44,225 bases of DNA from a virus (IMGVR_UViG_2744054854_000007), one strand, 5' to 3'. Counted from the stretch's first letter, positions 4,855 to 42,515 are shown. Numbers and translations are program-made. The notes: generated from the letters alone by a model not told the origin.

Positions 4855-5292
4855 TTAACGTTGCTCCCATATCCAGTAAAACCTGAATTCCTGCCAGTCC
4901 TTCCCCGGTGCCTGATAGCGGATAATGAGATTGAGCCGGTCAGGCAGGACGATCCTTGCAACAGGAATAACCTCGCTGACAACGCCATCAACCTTTAACC
5001 AGTTGAGCGCTTCACTCGAGTATTCCTCCGCTTTTTTTGCTACATCCGGGGTCAGTTTTTTCCGCCGTAGCAGCCACAGCCGGGATCCCAGTTGGGATTC
5101 CTCCCCGGAATCCCCCCACCAGCCGCGGCGATCGCTATCCTCATAATCATCGTCAGCGCGCGCCAGCCTGTCGGTAAACAGGCTGTCCAGTATTGCAGTC
5201 TGTAAATCGTTCCCCGTGGTGAGTTCACCCAGCCCTTTCTGCCAGTCAGCAAACATCTCATCCACATTCCAGAATGAAGCGATGTCACTCAT
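4855..5292 (-). CDS. Baseplate protein, Mu gp46-like
   Basis: 145 aa; synteny between gp45-like and J-like genes. Confidence 0.65.
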   Translation of the reverse strand: MSDIASFWNVDEMFADWQKGLGELTTGNDLQTAILDSLFTDRLARADDDYEDSDRRGWWGDSGEESQLGSRLWLLRRKKLTPDVAKKAEEYSSEALNWLKVDGVVSEVIPVARIVLPDRLNLIIRYQAPGKDWQEFRFYWIWEQR

Positions 5293-5873
5293 GTCACCTG
5301 ATCCTCTGTTTTTTGGCTGCGGATATTGTCATTGCCACTCTGGGCATTTTTAACCACATGATCATGGTCATTATGTGCATCCCGCAGCTCTTTCAGTGTT
5401 CGGGTATTGGTTTCACAGTTATCAACAATGTCACCCGTGCACCTCAGGATCGGGGTATTTGCAAGGATCCCCTGGCTGGCATTGATGGTCACGTTAGTGG
5501 CGTTATTGACCTCAACATTCTGGCCCTTTGCATCCAGGAAGATCCCCTTCTCCGTCAGGAGAATATTAAGGCCCCACTGGTTATACATGACCGTTTCGCC
5601 CGCTTTCAGGCCTGTATGACGGAACCCCTGATGGTTGGACGCAATTACCACCGCGCTGGAACGATCACCGCCAATAAAAGCCAGAACCACGTCAGTCCCT
5701 GACGGCAGGCCGGATGAAAAGCCAAATTCTGCCATCCGCGGAGCGCTGGCCACCTCCAGCGGAGTCTGGTACTGGATAGACTGCACCACCCCACCATCTT
5801 TCATAGCCGTGATCCGGCCAATCCCCAGCATGCCGGCGATCCTGGTCGCTGCATGTTTAAATAGTTGCTTCAT
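5289..5873 (-). CDS. Baseplate assembly/spike protein (Mu gp45-like, gpV family)
   Basis: 194 aa; ATGA overlap with neighbours; synteny. Confidence 0.65.
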   Translation of the reverse strand: MKQLFKHAATRIAGMLGIGRITAMKDGGVVQSIQYQTPLEVASAPRMAEFGFSSGLPSGTDVVLAFIGGDRSSAVVIASNHQGFRHTGLKAGETVMYNQWGLNILLTEKGIFLDAKGQNVEVNNATNVTINASQGILANTPILRCTGDIVDNCETNTRTLKELRDAHNDHDHVVKNAQSGNDNIRSQKTEDQVT

Positions 5874-6955
5874 GTATTGAATCCCGCCAGGTTCTGGTAG
5901 AAGGCATATGGCTGAACGGAGAATGCTTCAGGCGGCATCAGCGTCATGCGTGCATGGGTGCCGTAGTCATCGCGCATATAGGTGACTTCTGCCAGTAGCA
6001 ATTCAGTCTTCGGCAACCGTAAGGTGGGAAGATCAACGGGGATCAATGTGTTTGGTTCCCACAGTTTCCCGTCTTTATCCCGCCAGGAATCGATGGTTAC
6101 CGAGAGCTGTTTTGAACGTCCGTACCGCCGGTTCATTTCCCAGTCGATCGCACTTTGTGCCTGTTGAGTAGCCATCAGGGTACTTTCCACAATCGATATA
6201 TGTTTTCGGTACCGCATGCGGGCGGCCTCCGGATCTCTCGCCGTTGCCAGAGTCACAGCGTCATAGGCCGTATCAGGCGAATACCCTGCAATTGGAGAAA
6301 CGCTCATTGATACACCGACATAATCTGAAAACCTGTCAGCCATCGATTTGCGGTAGTATGCCTGCTCGACATTTACCCCTTCGGCTATCCCACTTGCCGC
6401 ACGACGTGTTCCCACCCGGGTCAGTAACAGGTTTCCATCGGGCTGATCGTAGTAAAGCAGAGCAGACCATCTGGCCACCCGATCGATGACTTCTTGCGGA
6501 GACTCACCCCAGTTCAGAGTGAACTGGGGTACCTTCACAAGTTCATCAACATCCGTGGTTACGGTGATGCCGTAGTAGGATGCCAGGCGAGAAGCAATTT
6601 CAAGCGCATTACTGGCATTGATGACGTTGTTAGGCCACTCGGCTGAGCAATCCACCAGGTCCTGACATTTGCTCCTGCCCGTGGCGCGGACCTCATGGCG
6701 GGAGCGCGATAGTGCGGGTTCCCAGTCATCAACATATCCCGTCAGTGTCAGATCATCTCCGATACGAACTTCACAAGACATTCCCTCTTCAACGAGTTGA
6801 CGATCTTCGTTGCCAGGGAAGTAATCCATTAGCCCAAGATCGAAATCAGAGGGAAAACGCTCAATACCCCGCGTTACCCGGACAGAATCCCACCCCTCGA
6901 TGATTTTGCCGTCGACCGTCAAAGAAACAACATCCAGATCGCTGTCTGCATTCAT
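5870..6955 (-). CDS. Baseplate hub protein (Mu gp44/P-like)
   Basis: 361 aa; ATGA overlap with upstream gene; synteny. Confidence 0.65.
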   Translation of the reverse strand: MNADSDLDVVSLTVDGKIIEGWDSVRVTRGIERFPSDFDLGLMDYFPGNEDRQLVEEGMSCEVRIGDDLTLTGYVDDWEPALSRSRHEVRATGRSKCQDLVDCSAEWPNNVINASNALEIASRLASYYGITVTTDVDELVKVPQFTLNWGESPQEVIDRVARWSALLYYDQPDGNLLLTRVGTRRAASGIAEGVNVEQAYYRKSMADRFSDYVGVSMSVSPIAGYSPDTAYDAVTLATARDPEAARMRYRKHISIVESTLMATQQAQSAIDWEMNRRYGRSKQLSVTIDSWRDKDGKLWEPNTLIPVDLPTLRLPKTELLLAEVTYMRDDYGTHARMTLMPPEAFSVQPYAFYQNLAGFNT

Positions 6956-27555: not shown

Positions 27556-28245
27556 TCAATCCAGTTTTGCAAGACTTGAGTCTAAATTTGTCGCCTTTTG
27601 TTGTGAACGTGATCGCGTAACCTGCAATAAAGCCCCGCTATCCAGTCGCAGGAAGATGCTGCGCATCTCAACCCAGCGGTCAGTAAAGGTCTCTGACCAG
27701 TTTTTTGGCGTTACGCCAACCAGCGACGCCAGCGCCTGATATTCGTACATCTCACGCCCTGCCAGCTCTGCTTTCACGTCCTGAGCCGCGAGCCAGACAA
27801 GCTTCTTCAGGCGCTCCATCGTTTTGCCGGCCACCTTCTTCGCGCCGAGCTGCTCCCGGAACTCTGCCCACGCCCATTGAGTGATTTCCACCTGATAGCA
27901 CCAGCGCACGTTCTCGCTATAGTTCCATAGCAGCCACGCTTTCTGGTGTTCTTCGAGTGACATCAGTGCGCGGCGCCACGATGCGCTGGAGTATTCAACC
28001 GGCTGCACCAGGGGAATATGCGAACCCTTGGCATGCGACTGCTTGCCCGGTATTGGCGGGTTATCCAGCGTAATCATTTCCCCGGTCACTTCATCCAGCA
28101 CTCGAGGCTTTTTACGTTTAAACGTTCCCGTATCGAACTGCGCGTTTTCAAGCCACGCCATCAACTGCCCTTTCGTCGCACCACTTAAATCGGCGGTGGC
28201 CACCATCAACTGCTGGCGCACGTATTCGAGAAATTGAGTATTCAT
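27556..28245 (-). CDS. Putative late-gene antiterminator (Q-like)
   Basis: 229 aa; position between nin/RusA region and lysis genes with a terminator about 65 nt downstream; family from memory only. Confidence 0.45.
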   Translation of the reverse strand: MNTQFLEYVRQQLMVATADLSGATKGQLMAWLENAQFDTGTFKRKKPRVLDEVTGEMITLDNPPIPGKQSHAKGSHIPLVQPVEYSSASWRRALMSLEEHQKAWLLWNYSENVRWCYQVEITQWAWAEFREQLGAKKVAGKTMERLKKLVWLAAQDVKAELAGREMYEYQALASLVGVTPKNWSETFTDRWVEMRSIFLRLDSGALLQVTRSRSQQKATNLDSSLAKLD

Positions 28246-28375
28246 ACTGCACCGCCTATGGTTTTGATGTAGTTCTTCAGTATCCGGTAGTCCGTTAGCA
28301 CAGAGCCGGGAAAGTGGTATAAGCGAAGCCGCTGCCAGCGAACGCGGAGGTGATCGGAAAAACAGGATTCAAATG

Positions 28376-28738
28376 TCATACGGCCTCCAGCCCGGTGATT
28401 GTCAGTTCCAGCTTTCCACCTTTGGTAACGGGCATCTTCACAACGCGATAATCAACGACCTGAGCATCGTCCAGCCAGAAACCTGCTTTGGTGAGTGCGT
28501 CAAAAGCGGCCTTTTGCAGATTATCCAGGTCACGGCGACGGCGATCCGGCATGTGGCACTCAATGCGGATTTTCACAGGCATAGCCAGACCGATATCCAG
28601 CATTGCGTTTTTAATGATTCGGGCGACGTTATCGCGGTATGCCTGCCCTTCTGCGCTGATGTGCGTGCGCCCGCGATTATGGCGGTAGTAGCGGTTATTG
28701 CTCGGCGGCCAGGGCAATGTGATGTTGTAAGTATTCAC
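28376..28738 (-). CDS. rusA: Holliday-junction resolvase RusA
   Basis: GTG start at 28738 with GAGGGGG SD; product (V)[25 protein letters not shown]...[14 protein letters not shown] nearly identical to remembered E. coli RusA. Confidence 0.85.
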
Positions 28739-29025
28739 GCCTTGATTACCCCCTCTTTCAGCCAGATAACCTGCGTTCTCGCCATACCTTCCAGCGCGCA
28801 TTCTTTAGCATACTCAGCATCGACAAAATGTGTACGGCGGTCGATCTCGTCGTGACAGGCAGAGCATGCAATGGTGGCAATCAGATCAGGCGGTTTGATT
28901 CCGGTGCCACATAACCCGGCCAGGCGAATGTGCGCCAGTACAGACGTTTCCGGGTTACCGTTGCAGACGCCGGGAATTCGAACCTGACAATCACGACCAC
29001 GAGCCTCTTTGCGTAAATTTGCCAT
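28735..29025 (-). CDS. ybcO: YbcO-like nin-region protein (DUF1364)
   Basis: Internal ATG 29025; [35 protein letters not shown]... closely resembles remembered DLP12 YbcO. Confidence 0.7.
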
Positions 29026-29027
29026 GC

Positions 29028-29234
29028 TCACCCCCACGCCTTGCTTTGCCATACCCGGCTCGGGCGAGGCGCGTTATCGCCTTCCGGCAATTGCGCGCTG
29101 ACGGTCCAGGTGATGTTGTCGCGATTCAGGCTGCGCTCTGTCTTTACACCGCGCGCCCGGTATTTCTCCACCAGCTCGTCGGCCTGATCGGTTGTGCATT
29201 CGTGATGGTGGAACCAGGAATATTTCATCGCCAT
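29028..29234 (-). CDS. Hypothetical small nin-region protein
   Basis: Internal ATG 29234 overlapping upstream stop; 68 aa. Confidence 0.4.
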   Translation of the reverse strand: MAMKYSWFHHHECTTDQADELVEKYRARGVKTERSLNRDNITWTVSAQLPEGDNAPRPSRVWQSKAWG

Positions 29235-29836
29235 CACCCCGCAAAGCTCATGAGCTGCGATGCGGCGTTTTCCGCTTCTCGCTGAGTCTTGAATGCCCGG
29301 GACAATACCCAGCGCCACAGAACATCGAGCGCGGCTTTGTACAGTTGCTGGAACTCGGTTTCGTCCATGTTAGCGAAGGCAATACTGCGGGGATGTTTGC
29401 GAAGTGTTCCGTCAGGAAGCTGAATAGCGTCATAGTGACCAGACTCGACAATTACCCAGGCACGGTACGCGTCAAAGGATTTACACAGGCTGATCCCATT
29501 GGTAATTCGGCGACTGGCTACCTGCTCCAGATACCGCTCGGCAGCATCCAGAAGTGCACCTTCGTTTCCACCAAATGCCGCGAGGAATTTAGCGTACCCG
29601 GTCACCAATTTTCGTTCGTTGGAAGAGATCGCCCCTCCAGTGGGTTCCCAATATTCAAACCCGAGATTCAGGAGCGCAAAGAAACGGCGATGGAATGCGG
29701 GATTCCTCACCTGCCGGAACTCGGCCACCAGCACGGCGCCGAGTTTGATTTTTGATTGCAGAATATCGCTGGTCTCCGGCGTCGCGGGGATCAGGATTCC
29801 TGAGGACTGCTTGATGAGTTGTAGTTCGTGCGCCAT
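29234..29836 (-). CDS. Nin-region protein of unknown function (DUF1367-like)
   Basis: Internal ATG 29836 (MAHELQLIKQ); 200 aa; family from memory. Confidence 0.5.
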   Translation of the reverse strand: MAHELQLIKQSSGILIPATPETSDILQSKIKLGAVLVAEFRQVRNPAFHRRFFALLNLGFEYWEPTGGAISSNERKLVTGYAKFLAAFGGNEGALLDAAERYLEQVASRRITNGISLCKSFDAYRAWVIVESGHYDAIQLPDGTLRKHPRSIAFANMDETEFQQLYKAALDVLWRWVLSRAFKTQREAENAASQLMSFAG

Positions 29837-29936
29837 GGTTCCCCCGTGGCGCATCAAGTTGTCAGTTGTTCAGGCTGACACTGACATTATGTACAGCTGA
29901 TAATGGAAAATCAAATGTTGCTTTTAGCTGAACTGA

Positions 29937-30188
29937 TTAATATTTGTAGCGGTTTTCAGGAAGAAATGCGTATTCGTAAGTGAAGTTGAACGCCTCACTT
30001 TCAGTGTTAAATCGGCGCTCGGTGATATCACTCCAGTGTCCCCTGAAATACTTCTGAGCCCCCCACTTTCCCTCGAATGGGAATACAGCATACGCACCGA
30101 CATACCGGTTATCAGCATGCGGATCTGGATATGACTCGCGTTCTGCCAGAACGTAAAACTTGATGCCGCTTACAATGAGGCAGCCCAT
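29937..30188 (-). CDS. Hypothetical protein
   Basis: ATG 30188 overlapping upstream stop (TGATG). Confidence 0.4.
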   Translation of the reverse strand: MGCLIVSGIKFYVLAERESYPDPHADNRYVGAYAVFPFEGKWGAQKYFRGHWSDITERRFNTESEAFNFTYEYAFLPENRYKY

Positions 30189-30445
30189 CACTTCTTCTCG
30201 TTCTGCGCGGCCATATCCAGGTATCGCGGGTCGGATGATTTCGGTAGAGTCAGGCTTTGCTCTCGGTAGTAACGAACTCGCTCCATGAAGTATTCACGCA
30301 GATGATCTGGCTGCTCACGAGCTACCTGCTCAGCGATAACCGGCATGTTCAGGCGCTCTTTGTACGCTACGCCACTGGCAGCCAGGTCCACGTTAGCCTT
30401 GTCCTGCTCTTCTTTCGATTTTTCTGCGATATTAAAATGTGACAT
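30188..30445 (-). CDS. Hypothetical protein
   Basis: 85 aa; translationally coupled to neighbours. Confidence 0.4.
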
Positions 30446-30627
30446 TAATCTGCTGTTCTCCCTCTTTTTTTCCTCGTTTCGTAAGGAGACCTGTAACCAT
30501 CTACAGGGGCCACATCATCAGCCTCAAAGCGCTTAGCGTTTGCTATATCGGATTGAAGCCAGTGTTTTTTATATCGCTTCCTCGCCGCTTTGTATTTTTC
30601 GGCAGGTGTCATTTCTTCGTTTGACAT
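30445..30627 (-). CDS. Hypothetical small basic protein
   Basis: Internal ATG 30627 abutting terminator hairpin; start uncertain. Confidence 0.3.
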
Positions 30628-30655
30628 AAAAAATCCCCTTGAGTTATGGAGGGGA
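30628..30655 (-). terminator. Rho-independent terminator (minus strand)
   Basis: ATCCCCT/AGGGGAT stem, 9-nt loop, then T6 on the minus strand; about 120 nt 3' of secreted-protein gene. Confidence 0.5.
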
Positions 30656-30782
30656 TTATAGGTCAGGCCGCGATTTGTTTCGACTGGCATAGTTCCGGCA
30701 GGTTAGCCCTCACCAGTGCTACAGCGAACGGGGGCACAGCCAAAAATAAAAACCGCCTAACCTGGTTGAAATTCGTTCTATT

Positions 30783-31124
30783 TTATTTGCAGGTAAATTG
30801 CACTACATCACCCTGAGACATTTGAAAGAATCGGTAATCACCATCTCCACGTCTTTGTATAATATTGCCCTCTTTAGTCGCACCAGATGGGTATGTCTTT
30901 CCTTCCGGTTTTTCTGGCCTAATCTTGCTTGTGGTGTAAGAAATGGTCCCAAAGTTAACTGTTATTGAATTTCCGATGTCAGTTATATTTGCCTTTACTT
31001 CGCCGGATTTTACTTCATTTGAGGTCATACTCCTTGCTATTCCAGAGCATACATATTCCTTTGCTTCAACGGCATGGGGCATAAGAAAGCCAATTCCTAA
31101 CAACGTGATCGCCAAATATTTCAC
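30783..31124 (-). CDS. Small secreted protein (113 aa), candidate moron
   Basis: GTG 31124 seven nt after AAGGAG; VKYLAITLLGIGFLMPHAVEA/KE signal-like N-terminus; two Cys in mature part; AT-rich by eye. Confidence 0.5.
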   Translation of the reverse strand: MKYLAITLLGIGFLMPHAVEAKEYVCSGIARSMTSNEVKSGEVKANITDIGNSITVNFGTISYTTSKIRPEKPEGKTYPSGATKEGNIIQRRGDGDYRFFQMSQGDVVQFTCK

Positions 31125-31286
31125 TTTATCTTCTCCTTGATGAGTCCCCCTCGATACTTTGGGAGGGATTATACAAAAGAAAAGTGTGGTCATGGCTATT
31201 TTTGGTAATGTTATTCGATGATAATTCACTTTATTTTTTAAATCATAATGCTATATTTCTTTCACCCCTTGCTTGCAAGGTACAAC

Positions 31287-31378
31287 GGAGGGTTGGCCGA
31301 GTGGTTGATGGCACCTCACTGATAATGAGGCGTACGGGCTATAAACCCGTACCGCGGGTTCGAACCCCGCACCCTATT
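31287..31378 (+). tRNA. tRNA-like gene, class-II architecture, Ile-type anticodon loop CUGAUAA (GAU); possibly degenerate
   Basis: Hand-folded: D-arm GCC-GAGTGGTTGAT-GGC; anticodon arm CCTCA-CTGATAA-TGAGG; 23-nt variable hairpin; T-arm GCGGG-TTCGAAC-CCCGC; acceptor has one G:A mismatch and no encoded CCA; followed by a terminator. Confidence 0.4.
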
Positions 31379-31381
31379 TAA

Positions 31382-31414
31382 GGGGTCGACAAATGTCGGC
31401 CCCTTCTTCGTTTT
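31382..31414 (+). terminator. Rho-independent terminator (plus strand) after tRNA-like gene
   Basis: 9-bp stem GGGGTCGAC/GTCGGCCCC (one G-U), loop AAAT, then TTCTTCGTTTT. Confidence 0.6.
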
Positions 31415-31600
31415 ATACATCAAATTTGGCTCTACCCGCACCGCATTCCTACCTGCTAAAACTTCATCAATCACCTGCCATTGCGTAGCCGAGATTACCG
31501 CCGTCGCTTTGTGCTGCTGCTTTTATGAGTATTTCCTGTATCTCGTGCAGACGATCGAGTGATACAGGACCGTTCACCGGGTGGTTGTTAATTGTCATGG

Positions 31601-32078
31601 TTAGTCCTTCACAAAGATAATCCAATGGGTTTTGTCGTTCTTCCCAGTACGCTGACCAATTGCAGGTTTCACGTCAGTAAGAGCTAAAATCTGGCTAACC
31701 GGGATCTGCGTTTCGTTCCATTTGAAAATAAGCACGCCGCGCGGCCACAGCACCCGAAACGCTTCTTTGAAACCGGCGCGTAAGTCAGAGCGCCACGTTT
31801 TTTTTGTTCAGTCGCCCGTATTTTTTACCCATCCAGGCAGACTGGCCCACGCGCTCGAGGTGCGGCGGGTCAAACACCACAACCGGAAAAGAAGAATCAG
31901 CGAACGGCAGTGAACGAAAGTCTGAAATCAGGTCTGGACTGATAACCAGGCGGCGACCGTCGCACAGTTCGTGCTCTTCGGCGCGAATATCAGTGAACAC
32001 GGCGCGGGTGTCCTGCTTGTTGAACCAGAACATGCGGGAGCCGCAGCACATATCAAGAATCGTCGTGTTGTCGGTCAT
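31601..32078 (-). pseudogene. Dam-like DNA methyltransferase interrupted by a frameshift at an A8 homopolymer
   Basis: N-terminal frame MTDNTTILDMCCGSRMFWFNKQ...VVVFDPPHLE stops 4 codons after the A8 run (31798-31805); the shifted frame continues ...TWRSDLRAGFKEAFRVLWPRGVLIFKWNE... to TAA at about 31601; removing one A restores a ~159-aa ORF. Confidence 0.5.
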
Positions 32079-32386
32079 ACTGATGCTCTCCCGTAAAACG
32101 CCAGTACACGCTGCATAGCCGGACTTGTGCGGCATACGGATGTGACCATGTTTTTTCTCACTTTCGATTTGAGTTGCTTGATATTCTGCTCGCCACCGGG
32201 CTGAAGCGAATAGACCGGGCGATGCGGCTCGCCAGTGCGGATTACTACCGTTTTGCGTACTAGGTGAAGCAGCAGGTTGTGTGCCTTCTTGCAGTCGCAT
32301 CCCAGCAGGCTCTGAACCTGACGAGGGGTTATGGTCTGGTTAACCCGAAGGAAATCGACGATTGCCCACAGTGATTTGCTTGCCAT
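32075..32386 (-). CDS. Hypothetical protein (103 aa)
   Basis: ATG 32386; stop overlaps methyltransferase ATG (ATGA). Confidence 0.45.
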   Translation of the reverse strand: MASKSLWAIVDFLRVNQTITPRQVQSLLGCDCKKAHNLLLHLVRKTVVIRTGEPHRPVYSLQPGGEQNIKQLKSKVRKNMVTSVCRTSPAMQRVLAFYGRASV

Positions 32387-32404
32387 AGTGATTTGCCCTC
32401 GAAG

Positions 32405-33154
32405 TTATTTAACGATCCGGAGATGGCTAACGTTCTTGCGATAGCTGCCCCAGTCAAAGTTCACCCACATTCCGCCATCCATCTGGAGACGGTCGATAAC
32501 CCGCGCACCCAACGCCACGAGAAGCTCGTCGTGGTTCAGGTTTGTCAGGATCCCCACCGGACGCATCGACGACAGGCGACGGTCGATAACCTGATTCAGA
32601 ATGACTTTCTCGCCGTTACTTCCACGCTGAATACCGACTTCATCCAGCACCAGCAGATCGACTTTGCAGAGGTCATCCAGCAATGCGGCCTCTGACTGAC
32701 CACCGTCGTAGCACTCGCGAACGCGTAGCATCAGGTCAGGGATAGTGACGACCAGCACGCTATGCCCGCCAGAAAGCAAATGATTTCCGATTGCTGCAGC
32801 GAGATGGTTTTTCCCGGTACCAGGGCCACCGCTAAACACGAAGCTCGCGAACCCAGCACCGAAATTCTGTGCGTAGCTCTTTGCCATCGTGAAGGCTTTG
32901 CGCTGCCCTTCCCCGGATACATGGTAATTCTCGAAAGTGCAGCTGCGGTGCAGGCTTTGAATTCCTGAGCGACCGAAAATTTTCTCTGTCCGGGCTTTCT
33001 GATTCAGCCTGTCCAGTTCTTCACACCGCTTCAGGCCTTCTTCCCTCTGCCATGCCAGCAGCTCTTCCGCGCTGGTGAACTTCGGCTGAACTCCTGGCGG
33101 AATGAGTTTCTTCAGGCGCTCAAGAGCGCTGCCAGAATTAACAATGTTTTTCAC
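32405..33154 (-). CDS. DnaC-like replicative helicase loader (AAA+ ATPase)
   Basis: 249 aa; Walker A GGPGTGKNHLAAA and Walker B LLVLDEVG; GTG start with AGGGGG SD two nt after the O-like stop. Confidence 0.85.
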   Translation of the reverse strand: MKNIVNSGSALERLKKLIPPGVQPKFTSAEELLAWQREEGLKRCEELDRLNQKARTEKIFGRSGIQSLHRSCTFENYHVSGEGQRKAFTMAKSYAQNFGAGFASFVFSGGPGTGKNHLAAAIGNHLLSGGHSVLVVTIPDLMLRVRECYDGGQSEAALLDDLCKVDLLVLDEVGIQRGSNGEKVILNQVIDRRLSSMRPVGILTNLNHDELLVALGARVIDRLQMDGGMWVNFDWGSYRKNVSHLRIVK

Positions 33155-33156
33155 CG

Positions 33157-34104
33157 TTACCCCCTGAACCCGGTCGGGATGGTTTTATCTGGCTCAGAAA
33201 TTCGGTTGGGATCTCGCTGTCCAACATGGACGGTCCTTTGGCCGTGACCACGCGATTGCAACAGACTGTTGGCAAAGGTCTGCTCCCAAGCCAACTGGTG
33301 TTTAACCTTGCCGTCAGGTATCCAGTAATCACGGAATTGCTGGAGCTCTTCAGCGGTGTAACCTGGCTCAGTGCCGACGTTCTTACCCCAGAGCGCAGCC
33401 TGACGCACGAAGTCTGGAGACGGGGTCCATGAGTCAGTGATCGGAAATTTACCCAATGGGCCAAAATCCAGACCGGGCCCAAAATCCTCGTTCTGAGGTT
33501 TGGGAGGGATAGCTGGCAGAGGTGGGTGATTTCCAGAAATATCATCCCCAGAATGACTTCCGCCCGCGCGTTCTCTCTCTGGGTTTAGATCTTCTCTTCT
33601 CTTCTCTTCTCTGTGGTTACGCGTTACGTTATTAGTAACGTTACTCGTTACGTTACTTTCCTGGAGTTTTTTCCGTTCACGAAACTCCTTCTGGCGCTGC
33701 GCATTTGTCTTGGCCGTAGCTGAGCGCATATCACCTGACGTATTGTATTCATTGAAGTTTGGAAGAATGACGCAGTTATTCTCCGCATCATAAATGGCCC
33801 AGCCTACGGTTGATAATGCAGCCCCAAAACCGGGTACTCCGACAATATCATCGATATCAGACAGGTCTGCATTTTCAAATACACCGTTACGCGAGTGTTC
33901 ATTTGCCGCAGACCAAAACGTTACTAGTAACGACACCGTAACGTTACGGGTTACGTTACGCGTTACAACGTCTGATAACGTGGTGTTATGCGAAAGTGTG
34001 AACATTTTTCCCACCTCCGGTGAACGCTCCAGTATTCGCGCAATTCCGTTCACCTTCGGGCTGGTGACCAGTGATGTACGCATCTTTATCCAGTCTCCGG
34101 CCAT
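33157..34104 (-). CDS. Replication initiator/replisome organiser (lambda O-like) with embedded iteron-like repeats
   Basis: ATG 34104 with AGGAGG SD; repeated NVT codons encoded by GTTAC repeats; position upstream of DnaC-like gene. Confidence 0.65.
   Translation of the reverse strand: MAGDWIKMRTSLVTSPKVNGIARILERSPEVGKMFTLSHNTTLSDVVTRNVTRNVTVSLLVTFWSAANEHSRNGVFENADLSDIDDIVGVPGFGAALSTVGWAIYDAENNCVILPNFNEYNTSGDMRSATAKTNAQRQKEFRERKKLQESNVTSNVTNNVTRNHREEKRREDLNPERERAGGSHSGDDISGNHPPLPAIPPKPQNEDFGPGLDFGPLGKFPITDSWTPSPDFVRQAALWGKNVGTEPGYTAEELQQFRDYWIPDGKVKHQLAWEQTFANSLLQSRGHGQRTVHVGQRDPNRISEPDKTIPTGFRG
33613..33660. repeat. Iteron-like GTTAC(G) repeat cluster A (candidate ori) inside O-like gene
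   Basis: About five direct GTTAC units plus inverted TAGTAAC within 48 bp; preceded by (CTTCT)x4 microsatellite at about 33591-33612. Confidence 0.5.
33917..33970. repeat. Iteron-like GTTAC/GTAAC repeat cluster B inside O-like gene
   Basis: GTTACTAGTAAC and CGTAACGTTACG palindromes plus direct GTTACG units. Confidence 0.5.
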
Positions 34105-41396: not shown

Positions 41397-42515
41397 ATGA
41401 TGATGGAAAACACGAATATCGTAACCGCTGAACAGCAGACTCCAAACACGATCTCAGCCAGCAATGCCATTTTCAACGTGCAGGCTTTAACCCAGCTTCA
41501 GTCTGTCGCCGGGTTGATGGCACAGGCAGCCGTAACGGTGCCTGAGCACCTCCGCGGCAATCCGGCAGACTGCATGGCCATCATCATGCAGGCGATGCAG
41601 TGGGGTATGAACCCTTACGCCGTGGCGCAAAAGACGCACCTGGTTAACGGTGTCCTGGGATACGAAGCGCAACTGGTTAATGCGGTGATCTCCAGCTCAA
41701 ACGCCATCGTTGGCCGCTTTCACTATGAGTACGAGGGCGACAGGTCGAAATGTGCCAGCAGCCGCGAGATAACCGTTAAAAAGCCTGCGAAAGGTGGCGG
41801 GACGTACGACAAGAAAGAAATGGTACGCGGTTGGGAAAGTGCTGATGAACAAGGACTGTCGGTACGGGTAGGTGCCGTTATTCGCGGTGAAAGTGATATC
41901 ACCTGGGGAGAGCCTGTTTTCCTCTCCAGCGTAATCACACGTAATTCTCCACTTTGGGTATCAAACCCGAAACAGCAGATCGCTTATCTGGCACTCAAAT
42001 ACTGGGCGCGCCTATATTGCCCTGCAGTTGTTCTTGGTGTGTACACCCCTGATGAGATTGAACAGCGCACAGAAAAAGAGATCAACCCAACGCCGCAACG
42101 CGTTAGCCTGGCTGATATCTCAGGTGACACCGTCACAACCACGCAAAGCGCACAGGAATCGTCGGTAAATGTCGACTCTCTTGCCGATGATTTCCGCGAA
42201 CGCATCGAATCTGCTCAGGACGTGGATAGCGCCAAATCGCTGCGTGCCGACATTGAAACGGCGAAAGCTACGCTGGGATCCGCACTATTCACCGAGCTGA
42301 AAAACAAAGCCGTAAAGCGTTATTACCTAGTGGATGCACGCAACAAGGTTGAGGAGGCTATTAAATCCCTGCCCCAGCCCGACGAGCCGCATGCAGCCGA
42401 ACGGTTCGCTGAAGCCGAGCGCATGCTTGCATCTTCAAAGCGTCACTTAGGCGATGAACTGCACGATCAATTCAGCATCACCCTGGCGGATATGAAACCG
42501 GAATACGTGGCCTGA
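41397..42515 (+). CDS. Single-strand annealing protein (Red-beta/RecT superfamily)
   Basis: 372 aa; by-eye similarity to lambda Bet in two blocks (...AIIMQAMQWGMNPY... and ...NPKQQIAYLALKYWARL...). Confidence 0.75.
   Translation: MMMENTNIVTAEQQTPNTISASNAIFNVQALTQLQSVAGLMAQAAVTVPEHLRGNPADCMAIIMQAMQWGMNPYAVAQKTHLVNGVLGYEAQLVNAVISSSNAIVGRFHYEYEGDRSKCASSREITVKKPAKGGGTYDKKEMVRGWESADEQGLSVRVGAVIRGESDITWGEPVFLSSVITRNSPLWVSNPKQQIAYLALKYWARLYCPAVVLGVYTPDEIEQRTEKEINPTPQRVSLADISGDTVTTTQSAQESSVNVDSLADDFRERIESAQDVDSAKSLRADIETAKATLGSALFTELKNKAVKRYYLVDARNKVEEAIKSLPQPDEPHAAERFAEAERMLASSKRHLGDELHDQFSITLADMKPEYVA

What the first reader, a model, noticed from the sequence alone, without database searches (positions are those of the whole stretch)
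30628..31260. AT-rich moron encoding a small secreted protein next to the tRNA-like gene
Seen in sequence: ORF with GTG start at 31124 exactly 7 nt after AAGGAG, a signal-peptide-like N-terminus (cleavage predicted after AVEA), a mature part of about 92 aa with two Cys, an AT-rich upstream region, and a terminator hairpin about 120 nt downstream. Established: promoter-gene-terminator cassettes of deviant composition in lambdoid phages are typically morons (for example bor, lom). Inference: a periplasmic or secreted lysogenic-conversion or exclusion factor.
Basis: partly seen in the sequence, partly recalled or inferred. Interest (0 to 1): 0.45.

Follow-up and report, generated by a model that had tools for sequence, protein, structure and literature searches.

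The report
Exported beta-barrel cargo gene in prophage
This is a real but rare prophage passenger gene for a small protein that is probably exported to the space between the bacterial membranes and folds as a tiny beta-barrel; it looks like an extra gene slipped into the phage's early operon, not a self-contained promoter-gene-terminator unit, and its function is still unknown.

Summary
A 113-codon ORF lies on the minus strand at 31124..30783. It has a GTG start, an AAGGAG 8 nt upstream (not 7), a Sec-type signal peptide with an invariant Ala at -1, a 92-aa mature part with two invariant Cys, low GC (0.40), and a hairpin plus U-run 123 nt downstream. It is a real gene: dN/dS is 0.12-0.23 and NCBI's PGAP annotation pipeline calls the same start.

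AlphaFold predicts an 8-stranded beta-barrel (pLDDT 84-85 for two members). No Pfam, PHROG, NCBIfam, PADLOC or PDB sequence match exists. The family is tiny, at about 9 clusters among billions of proteins, 11 of 5426 complete E. coli genomes and no sequenced phage.

The moron reading is only partly supported. The gene is inserted, compositionally foreign cargo, but no convincing promoter was found. The downstream "terminator" is a widespread nin-region junction element, annotated as a terminator in phage HK639, and it heads the next gene. The gene's own TATAAT leader is a decayed copy of that element. In relatives the gene is packed into, or translationally coupled to, the early-right operon. 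The AT-rich stretch arrived with the tRNA-like insertion.

Function is unproven. The barrel resembles MliC/PliC lysozyme inhibitors only at fold level.

The parts
30783..31124 (-). ORF113 coding sequence (GTG start, TAA stop): precursor of 113 aa, predicted mature protein of 92 aa
   Evidence: Same start called by PGAP. dN/dS 0.12-0.23. Homologues.
31062..31124 (-). Codons 1-21: Sec-type signal peptide MKYLAITLLGIGFLMPHAVEA, predicted cleavage between A21 and K22
   Evidence: Rule-based reading (n/h/c regions, -3 V, -1 A). A21 is invariant and -3 is V/I/A in 9 homologues. No lipobox. SignalP was not available.
31133..31138 (-). Shine-Dalgarno AAGGAG, 8 nt before the GTG. In relatives this position reads ATGGAG, with the ATG left over from the displaced downstream gene.
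31145..31173 (-). Degenerate copy of the nin junction element: TATAAT (31173-31168) followed by an imperfect CCCTC/GAGGG hairpin with no U-run. It overlaps a relic upstream ORF at 31176-31126 (TTG YNPSQSIEGDSSRRR stop), which is ATG-initiated and coupled through TGATG in relatives.
   Evidence: (z -0.2 here, -3.7 for the intact copy in L007)
31174..31286 (.). AT-rich spacer between the junction remnant and the tRNA-like gene (31125-31286 has GC 0.346). It is not homologous to relatives of the ORF and arrived with the tRNA segment.
30661..30762 (-). Long imperfect hairpin in the 3' untranslated region of ORF113, conserved in both E. coli contexts and in IMG/VR locus L014
   Evidence: z -2.9, 0 of 200 shuffles fold as well; many G.U pairs on this strand, 1-2 compensatory pairs, but only 3 sequences
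30628..30660 (-). Canonical nin junction element: TATAAT (30660-30655), hairpin 30657-30632 (CCCCU / AGGGG core, 10-nt loop), U-tract, then the ATG of the next gene at 30627.
   Evidence: The homologous element is annotated 'terminator' in phage HK639.
30445..30627 (-). Next cassette: 60-aa hypothetical protein ([13 protein letters not shown]...), followed by the theta (HolE/Hot-like) gene at 30188-30445
   Evidence: The same order occurs in HK639 and in IMG/VR loci.
31287..31378 (+). tRNA-like gene on the opposite strand: class II (long variable arm, Ser-type D-arm), anticodon GAU, G2.A71 mismatch, U73, no encoded CCA. Its terminator hairpin lies at 31380-31405.
31467..31598 (-). 43-aa ORF, probably the truncated 5' remnant of a 186-aa gene that directly precedes ORF113 in relative L014. 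It marks the right end of the 945-bp module shared by both E. coli contexts (30667-31611).

Best explanation
ORF113 is a horizontally acquired passenger gene in the nin region of a lambdoid prophage, between the replication genes and ninB.

Product. It encodes a Sec-exported precursor. Signal peptidase I probably cuts it after AVEA, releasing a soluble, basic 10-kDa periplasmic protein. The protein folds as a compact 8-stranded up-and-down beta-barrel. Its first and last strands carry the two invariant cysteines, so a disulfide closing the barrel is inferred.

Origin. The gene was inserted between a conserved nin junction element and the start codon of the phage theta gene. That element reads: stop codon-TATAAT-GC hairpin-U run-ATG.

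Expression. This is inferred, not shown. Transcription would come mainly from the early-right (PR) promoter under antitermination, during induction or infection. In relatives, translation is coupled to the upstream gene through a TGATG junction and a short upstream ORF. In this E. coli lineage a tRNA-like segment was later inserted just upstream and broke that coupling. The gene was left with its own AAGGAG-GTG initiation site. Any prophage-state expression would depend on the unproven -10-like TATAAT.

Mechanism, also inferred. The barrel acts in the periplasm as a binding or inhibitor module. It would use its invariant surface segment P70-Q90 (PEKPxGKxxPxGxTxEGNIIQ) against an envelope-acting protein. 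The most likely kind of target is a peptidoglycan hydrolase or an entry component of competing phages.

Sub-probabilities: exported soluble barrel about 0.85; expressed mainly with the early operon about 0.6; envelope protection or exclusion role about 0.35; lysozyme inhibitor specifically about 0.12-0.15.
For: - Real gene and start.
- Signal peptide with an invariant -1 Ala and two invariant Cys.
- Position and orientation: the gene lies in the nin region, co-directional with the replication genes, theta, ninB and Q, here and in 10 or more related loci.
- Tight packing or coupling in relatives.
- Insertion relative to junction->theta or junction->hyp60.
- Foreign composition kept in all hosts.
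- The tRNA and AT-rich segment are absent from all relatives.
- A distant homologue sits in a different mobile element, next to an AlpA-like gene, an integrase and tRNA-Arg. This fits a self-sufficient cargo function.
Against: - There are no expression data of any kind.
- The perfect TATAAT is retained in front of the gene in all lambdoid contexts and in front of other cassettes.
- The mature protein is basic (pI 9.0), which is not what one expects of an inhibitor of basic lysozymes.
Confidence: 0.5

Rival explanations
1. Autonomous moron. The gene is transcribed in the lysogen from its own promoter, with TATAAT at 31173-31168 as the -10. Transcription ends at the next junction hairpin (30657-30632). 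The product is a lysogenic-conversion or exclusion factor made by the prophage. One mechanistic variant is inference only: a transcript starting about 7 nt after TATAAT would lack the 5' arm of the junction hairpin. It would escape termination and expose the GAGG Shine-Dalgarno sequence, while read-through transcripts from upstream would terminate.
For: - A perfect TATAAT is conserved upstream of the ORF in all lambdoid contexts. It also heads other cassettes, including in HK639, where the preceding bases differ.
- A hairpin plus U-run lies downstream in both E. coli contexts.
- The gene has foreign composition and a sporadic distribution.
- The product is exported, like bor and lom (established knowledge).
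- The tRNA insertion cuts the gene off from upstream translation, yet the gene stays intact and 98-100% conserved in 11 genomes.
Against: - No -35 was found. The best candidate is TAGCCA at a 19-nt spacing, and it is not conserved in relatives.
- The TG lies one position off the extended -10 consensus (read from the sequence).
- In relatives TATAAT forms codons 2-3 of a short ORF coupled through TGATG.
- The terminators belong to neighbouring modules and are absent in Klebsiella contexts.
- Terminators are normal nin-region features (lambda tR2-tR4, established knowledge).
Confidence: 0.3
2. The protein is a periplasmic inhibitor of a peptidoglycan hydrolase. It would work like MliC/PliC against animal lysozyme, or like T4 Spackle against a phage tail lysozyme or endolysin. 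It would protect the cell from lysozyme or block cell-wall penetration by superinfecting phages.
For: - The size is similar (about 90 aa) and the compartment is the same.
- The Cys pattern is analogous: one Cys early in strand 1 (EYxC) and one in the last strand, in both families.
- The most conserved stretch is a loop plus hairpin, as in loop-inserting inhibitors.
- There is a precedent for a phage-encoded periplasmic lysozyme inhibitor, T4 Spackle (PMC7677548, found).
Against: - No Pfam PF09864 hit even at E <= 10.
- hhalign probability is 1.9% against MliC alignments that include Pseudomonas MliC, Brucella PliC and PliC-St fragments.
- The family motifs SxSGAxY and (W/Y)(T/S)KG, invariant, are absent.
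- Foldseek PDB found no PliC among its top hits.
- The 8-stranded barrel is a very common fold.
- The protein is basic (pI 9.0).
Confidence: 0.13
3. The barrel binds a small molecule in the periplasm, in the manner of lipocalin, YceI, hemophilin or Cap15, and does not bind a protein.
Against: - With 92 residues and three strands of only 4 residues, little room is left for a cavity.
- The conserved residues are polar loop residues, not cavity-lining ones.
- Cap15 is a cytoplasmic domain behind transmembrane helices, which is the opposite topology.
Confidence: 0.1
4. The protein is an outer-membrane 8-stranded barrel of the Lom/Ail/OmpX kind.
Against: - The mature part is only 92 aa and very polar (13 K+R and 10 D+E).
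- Several strands have 4 residues.
- The C-terminus is ...QFTCK and does not end in an aromatic residue.
- There are two conserved cysteines.
- No Pfam OMP family matches.
Confidence: 0.03

Closest known systems
Lambdoid-phage morons bor and lom (Hendrix/Juhala concept)
   Same: It is an extra, compositionally deviant gene that is present in few relatives. It sits among conserved phage genes and encodes an envelope-directed product.
   Different: bor and lom lie in the late region with their own promoters and are expressed from the prophage. ORF113 lies inside the early-right (nin) operon in the operon's orientation. It has no demonstrable promoter, borrows its terminator from the next cassette, and is translationally coupled to the upstream gene in relatives. 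It is not a lipoprotein (Bor) and not an outer-membrane barrel (Lom).
MliC/PliC family of periplasmic or membrane-bound c-type lysozyme inhibitors (Pfam PF09864; PDB 2f09, 3f6z, 3oe3, 4mir)
   Different: There is no detectable sequence or profile similarity. The defining SxSGAxY and (W/Y)xKG motifs are absent, the protein is basic, and inhibition is untested.
T4 Spackle (periplasmic inhibitor of the gp5 tail lysozyme; PMC7677548)
   Same: Both are small, phage-encoded early proteins with a signal peptide that act in the periplasm. Spackle is a plausible functional analogy for superinfection exclusion.
   Different: Spackle is reported there as a different, non-barrel fold. There is no sequence relation, and the analogy is purely conceptual.
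Nin-region terminator of phage HK639 (HM208537, feature 41560-41586) and the lambda nin terminators tR2-tR4
   Same: The hairpin at 30657-30632 is homologous to the HK639 element. The surrounding order is the same: element -> 60-aa gene -> theta -> ninB.
   Different: Here a second, decayed copy also heads ORF113, so the gene is bracketed by two copies. Function as a terminator, a promoter -10 or a recombination linker was not tested.

Membership tests
Moron (autonomous promoter-gene-terminator insert expressed from the prophage) | Extra DNA, absent at the same position in related phages | tested here: met
   In HK639 and about 25 IMG/VR loci the junction element is followed directly by theta or by hyp60. 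In ORF113 loci the gene lies between them. It occurs in 11 of 5426 E. coli genomes.
Moron (autonomous promoter-gene-terminator insert expressed from the prophage) | Nucleotide composition deviating from the surrounding phage genes | tested here: met
   GC 0.40 and GC3 0.36, against 0.52-0.55 and 0.58-0.63. The same holds in all other contexts.
Moron (autonomous promoter-gene-terminator insert expressed from the prophage) | Own promoter directly upstream | tested here: inconclusive
   No hit on this strand in the consensus scan. A perfect TATAAT is present but has no -35; the best candidate is TAGCCA at a 19-nt spacing. There are 5 lenient hits against 2.1 +/- 1.6 in shuffles. In relatives TATAAT forms codons 2-3 of a coupled short ORF.
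Moron (autonomous promoter-gene-terminator insert expressed from the prophage) | Own terminator directly downstream, travelling with the gene | tested here: not met
   The hairpin at 30657-30632 lies outside the shared module (boundary at 30667) and is the leader of the next cassette. The class-B terminator belongs to the dinI module. Klebsiella loci have none.
Moron (autonomous promoter-gene-terminator insert expressed from the prophage) | Transcribed in the repressed prophage | not testable with these tools
   No transcript data are available.
Sec signal peptide cleaved by signal peptidase I | Positive n-region, hydrophobic h-region of 10-15 residues, small residues at -3 and -1, no lipobox | tested here: met
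   Rule-based reading of MK / YLAITLLGIGFLM / PHAVEA|K. The -1 Ala is invariant and -3 is V/I/A in 9 homologues. The SignalP predictor was not available.
MliC/PliC lysozyme inhibitors (PF09864) | Match to the family profile | tested here: not met
   Pfam scan of 9 members at E <= 10 gave no PF09864 hit. hhalign probability 1.9%. Profile search of PDB sequences gave 0 hits at E <= 10.
MliC/PliC lysozyme inhibitors (PF09864) | Conserved lysozyme-binding motifs SxSGAxY and (W/Y)(T/S)KG | tested here: not met
   S71 G72 A73 Y75 K85 G86 are invariant in the MliC/PliC alignment. ORF113 has only an SGA tripeptide in a different context.
MliC/PliC lysozyme inhibitors (PF09864) | Eight-stranded antiparallel beta-barrel of about 90 residues | tested here: met
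MliC/PliC lysozyme inhibitors (PF09864) | Inhibits c-type lysozyme | not testable with these tools
   Requires a biochemical assay.
Bor/Iss lipoproteins | Lipobox with Cys at +1 of the mature protein; match to the Lambda_Bor profile | tested here: not met
   No L-x-x-C lipobox; the first Cys is mature residue 5 in the context EYVC. No Pfam hit.
Lom/Ail/OmpX outer-membrane barrels | About 150-170 aa, long amphipathic strands, C-terminal aromatic residue, family profile match | tested here: not met
   The mature part is 92 aa, several strands have 4 residues, and the C-terminus is FTCK. No Pfam hit.

The most novel reading that the evidence does not exclude
ORF113 would found a new, very rare family of periplasmic beta-barrel inhibitors carried by mobile elements. 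Such inhibitors would neutralise a peptidoglycan hydrolase or another envelope-acting component of competing phages, or host lysozyme. They would be a structural convergence on, or an extremely diverged branch of, MliC/PliC, used for superinfection exclusion. The gene would sit in a previously undescribed cargo hot spot of lambdoid nin regions. That hot spot is defined by a repeated stop-TATAAT-hairpin-U-run-ATG junction, which may act as a combined terminator and promoter.
Probability: 0.12. Interest if true: 0.6.

Novelty: new member of a known kind. Interest (0 to 1): 0.3.

Why it matters
Prophage passenger genes for exported proteins often change how the host meets other phages or the immune system. 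This gene is a clean, small, testable candidate with a confident predicted fold and no known relatives.

The comparative work also corrects the regulatory picture. The apparent promoter and terminator are two copies of a recurring nin-region junction element, behind which different cargo genes are swapped. These include theta, a 60-aa protein, membrane proteins, a lipoprotein-like gene and this barrel. If that element proves to be a combined terminator and promoter, or a recombination linker, it would explain how accessory genes are shuffled and expressed inside the early operon of lambdoid phages.

As it stands, the finding is an ordinary uncharacterised prophage gene.

Tried and rejected
- **Family libraries.** Pfam, PHROGs, NCBIfam and PADLOC gave only noise, with E >= 0.085.
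- **PDB sequence search with the family profile.** 0 hits at E <= 10.
- **Foldseek against PDB.** Nothing below E 0.02; the top hits were LolA, NHBA and PH domains at low TM-scores.
- **Foldseek against BFVD.** Only uncharacterised phage proteins and jumbo-phage 'lipoproteins', best E 8e-4.
- **AFDB libraries.** Unavailable.
- **Homology to MliC/PliC.** Tested with two profile-profile comparisons and rejected at sequence level.
- **Sequenced phages.** Megablast and tblastn against 50,697 phage records found no homologue.
- **GTDB species representatives.** One spurious Butyrivibrio hit only.
- **Empty-site search.** A query built from the class-B flanks found no genome with the two flanks adjacent. 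It did show that the flanks recombine independently.
- **IMG/VR scan with CCCCTC-N10-GAGGGGATT.** This was meant to test TATAAT conservation independently.
- **Literature searches.** Searches on exported nin-region genes, phage lysozyme inhibitors, HK639 and Ser-type tRNAs with an Ile anticodon gave no direct precedent apart from T4 Spackle.
- **Longer 148-codon reading from GTG 31229.** Rejected, because the N-terminal extension is not conserved and relatives start at the signal peptide.
- **Conserved leader peptide upstream.** Considered because 4 of 4 differences between the window and L014 are synonymous. Downgraded because only MYNP is shared across all groups.

Full report
**1. The observation**

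An ORF starts with GTG at 31124 and ends with TAA at 30785-30783, giving 113 codons. AAGGAG lies at 31138-31133, 8 nt before the start, not 7. PGAP annotates the identical start in E. coli genomes as WP_039022277.1, 'hypothetical protein'.

The N-terminus is MK-YLAITLLGIGFLM-PHAVEA|KE. It has a positive n-region, a 13-residue hydrophobic core and V/A at -3/-1. There is no lipobox. In an alignment of nine family members the -1 Ala is invariant, -3 is always V, I or A, and the two cysteines (C26, C112) are invariant. The mature part is 92 aa, 10.1 kDa, with pI 9.0.

The ORF has GC 0.404 and GC3 0.36. Neighbouring genes have 0.52-0.55 and 0.58-0.63. The upstream intergenic stretch 31125-31286 has GC 0.346.

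A hairpin at 30657-30632 with a U-tract begins 123 nt after the stop. It is modest: 8 bp with 4 G-C pairs, a 10-nt loop and z -2.5. SignalP could not be run. The signal-peptide call therefore rests on classical rules plus conservation.

**2. It is a real gene, and a rare one**

Pairwise dN/dS against four homologues is 0.12-0.23 at dS of about 1-1.5.

- The word-indexed search of 5.8 billion clusters found six clusters.
- The exhaustive HMMER search of 1.84 billion representatives added three true relatives. The remaining hits were low-complexity false positives.
- The DNA is in 11 of 5426 complete E. coli genomes.
- It is in no record of the 50,697-phage collection by megablast or tblastn.
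- It is in no GTDB species representative.
- It is in six IMG/VR contigs.
- No Pfam, PHROG, NCBIfam, PADLOC or PDB-sequence match exists.

**3. Context**

The window is a lambdoid prophage, 100% identical over 28000-34000 to E. coli 2018-10-1CC. The early-right genes run on the minus strand in this order:
- a Cro-like regulator;
- YdaT;
- the replication genes;
- a frameshifted methyltransferase;
- a 43-aa ORF;
- the tRNA-like gene, on the opposite strand;
- ORF113;
- a 60-aa gene;
- theta;
- ninB, ybcO, rusA and Q.

ORF113 is therefore inside the nin region and co-directional with the PR operon.

The same placement is seen in Klebsiella oxytoca and K. aerogenes prophages and in metagenomic contigs. 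There the gene is tightly packed. The upstream gap is about 51 nt and theta starts 18-60 nt downstream. In one contig the start overlaps the upstream gene. None of these loci has an adjacent tRNA.

A 50-55% identical homologue sits in a different element, beside an AlpA-like gene, a P4-type integrase and tRNA-Arg(CCT). The protein therefore travels as self-sufficient cargo.

**4. The 'promoter' and 'terminator' are two copies of one junction element**

TATAATCCC occurs just upstream of the ORF in every lambdoid locus. It occurs twice in the window, at 31173 and at 30660, both on the minus strand just before consecutive gene starts.

An IMG/VR scan for TGATGTATAATCCC was truncated at 120 rows. 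About 30 of those rows are enterobacterial phage loci with one architecture: stop codon (TGA or TAG) - TATAAT - CCCCT(C) - 10-nt variable loop - (G)AGGGG - U-run - ATG. The arms stay complementary while the loop varies. The gene that follows differs between loci:
- theta, in about 18 loci;
- the 60-aa protein, in 3;
- a 167-aa membrane-like protein;
- a 150-aa protein;
- the homologue of the window's 84-aa ORF;
- a lipoprotein-like gene.

In phage HK639 the depositors annotated this hairpin as 'terminator'. There it is followed by an unannotated homologue of the 60-aa gene, then theta, then ninB. That is exactly the order to the left of ORF113 in the window.

It lies beyond the boundary (30667) of the 945-bp module shared by the two E. 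coli contexts. In the second E. coli context the downstream terminator belongs to the dinI module. That module is present at 100% identity in about 49 genomes that lack ORF113.

ORF113's own leader (31173-31145) is a decayed copy of the same element. The hairpin is weak (z -0.2, against -3.7 for the intact copy in L007) and it has no U-run. The ATG of the displaced gene survives in relatives as ATCATGGAGAA. In the window it has become ATCAAGGAGAA, which creates the AAGGAG Shine-Dalgarno sequence.

After the Klebsiella ORFs a short repeat, GGATTATGATATG, restores the theta start. This reads as an insertion of ORF113 between the junction hairpin and the theta start codon.

**5. Coupling in relatives, and its loss here**

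In all relatives TGATG links the upstream gene's stop to an ATG. That ATG opens a short ORF of 11-18 codons beginning MYNP. Beyond MYNP the peptide is not conserved. The short ORF ends between -4 and +16 nt of the ORF113 start, and that start is always GTG or TTG. This is the layout of translational coupling.

In the window and in its class-B sibling the ATG is TTG and has no Shine-Dalgarno sequence. Homology to relatives begins at TATAAT.

Relative L014 shows the undisturbed arrangement. It shares the methyltransferase, the 3' UTR and the 60-aa gene (78% protein identity). There a 186-aa gene is coupled directly to ORF113, and there is no tRNA. The window's 43-aa ORF matches the N-terminus of that 186-aa protein (35% identity, E 5e-10).

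The AT-rich stretch and the tRNA-like gene are therefore a later insertion. It truncated the upstream gene and severed the coupling. The AT-rich region is not a conserved promoter of ORF113.

Promoter scans found nothing on this strand at standard stringency. At lower stringency they found only TAGCCA-19 nt-TATAAT.

**6. The protein**

AlphaFold2 with the shallow family alignment gives mean pLDDT 84.1 (over 90 for the mature part) and eight beta-strands. A second model, of a 50%-identical homologue, gives 85.1 and the same all-beta strand layout.

Several small periplasmic neighbours are lysozyme inhibitors, and both families carry a Cys in the first strand and another in the last. I therefore tested membership. 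It failed on every sequence criterion:
- hhalign against MliC alignments, including Pseudomonas MliC, Brucella PliC and PliC-St fragments, gave probability 1.9%;
- the invariant SxSGAxY and xKG motifs are absent.

The resemblance is at fold level only.

The most conserved part of the family is the segment P70-Q90 (PEKPxGKxxPxGxTxEGNIIQ). It spans a long loop and the following hairpin. It is the obvious candidate for a binding surface.

**7. Most likely mechanism**

*Shown:* the gene is real, inserted and compositionally foreign, it sits in the nin operon, and the barrel fold is predicted with confidence. The signal peptide is called by rule and conservation only.

*Inferred:*
- The product is exported and cleaved after A21, and the two Cys form a disulfide that closes the barrel.
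- The gene is transcribed with the early-right operon under antitermination.
- The product binds an envelope-acting target through the conserved loop.

An exclusion or protection role is plausible by analogy with T4 Spackle (PMC7677548) and with MliC/PliC, but it is untested.

There TATAAT is a real -10. A transcript starting inside the 5' arm of the hairpin would escape termination and free the Shine-Dalgarno sequence. This idea is attractive but lacks a -35 and any transcript evidence.

**8. Verdict**

This is a new member of a known kind: prophage accessory cargo encoding an exported protein of unknown function. Interest is moderate to low (0.3). The junction-element cargo hot spot and the odd tRNA-like gene are the more intriguing by-products.

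Noticed in passing
window 31287-31378 (+), terminator hairpin 31380-31405: The adjacent 'tRNA-Ile' is a 92-nt class II tRNA with a 7-bp variable arm and a Ser-type D-arm. Its nearest database relative is a Rhizobium phage tRNA-Ser at 77.5%. It carries a GAU (Ile) anticodon, a G1.U72 pair, a G2.A71 mismatch, U73 and no encoded CCA (Rfam tRNA 46.4 bits). It faces against the early operon. It is found in exactly the same 11 E. coli genomes as ORF113, at 100% identity. If SerRS charged it, it would insert Ser at AUC/AUU codons. Its damaged acceptor stem makes a decoy or a pseudo-tRNA equally possible.
   Followed up: partly
window 30628-30660 and 31145-31173 (-); IMG/VR loci L020, L028, L030, L031, L038, L048, L060, L067, L073, L078, L084, L089, L092, L115, L118 and others; HK639 41553-41590: A conserved nin-region junction element (stop codon-TATAAT-CCCCTC-10 nt loop-GAGGGG-U run-ATG) precedes many different cargo genes in enterobacterial lambdoid phages. 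The arms are conserved and the loop varies. The 3' arm doubles as the Shine-Dalgarno sequence of the next gene. It may act as a terminator, a -10 box, a translational-coupling device or a recombination linker for cassette exchange.
   Followed up: partly
window 30661-30762 (-): A roughly 100-nt imperfect hairpin in the 3' UTR of ORF113 is conserved in both E. coli contexts and in L014. z is -2.9 and 0 of 200 shuffles fold as well. Many G.U pairs make it specific to this strand, and there is one clear compensatory pair. It could be an mRNA-stabilising element or a 3'-UTR-derived small RNA. Only three sequence variants were available.
   Followed up: partly
window 31467-31598 (-) and 31601-32078 (-): The 43-aa ORF looks like the truncated N-terminus of a 186-aa gene that is intact in L014 (35% identity, E 5e-10). 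The methyltransferase upstream is frameshifted here but intact (166 aa) in L014. This part of the nin region is decaying around the tRNA insertion.
   Followed up: partly
L017 and L018, about 4953-6943: A 50-55% identical homologue of ORF113 (111 aa, ATG start) lies in a different mobile element. It is the last gene of a small-gene array (DUF2786), next to an AlpA-like regulator, a P4-type integrase and tRNA-Arg(CCT).
   Followed up: partly
HK639 (L259 1558-1741) and window 30445-30627 (-): The 60-aa gene ([13 protein letters not shown]...) is unannotated in the HK639 GenBank record, although it is conserved in the window, L014 and three IMG/VR loci, always just before theta.
   Followed up: no
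L002 3850-3990 (class-B E. coli context): In the second E. coli context ORF113 is followed by a strong terminator (z -4.0) and a dinI gene with a LexA-box-like palindrome (TACTGTATAAAAACACAGTA). Two genomes (MLI104K1, EM18-18-42) combine the class-A left flank with the class-B right flank. This shows recombination at both module borders.
   Followed up: partly
L078 about 1745 (-) and L014 4575-4871: Other exported cargo lies in the same region. A lipoprotein-like ORF (MYFSLKTFVIITAC...) sits directly behind the same junction element in L078. A 98-aa lipoprotein-like ORF (…FLTSC…) sits just upstream of ninB in L014.
   Followed up: no
window 31753-31734 (-): A terminator-like hairpin plus T-run lies inside the 3' part of the frameshifted methyltransferase, upstream of the 43-aa ORF. 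The scan count for the whole region (3) is close to chance expectation (2.0), so it may be meaningless.
   Followed up: no
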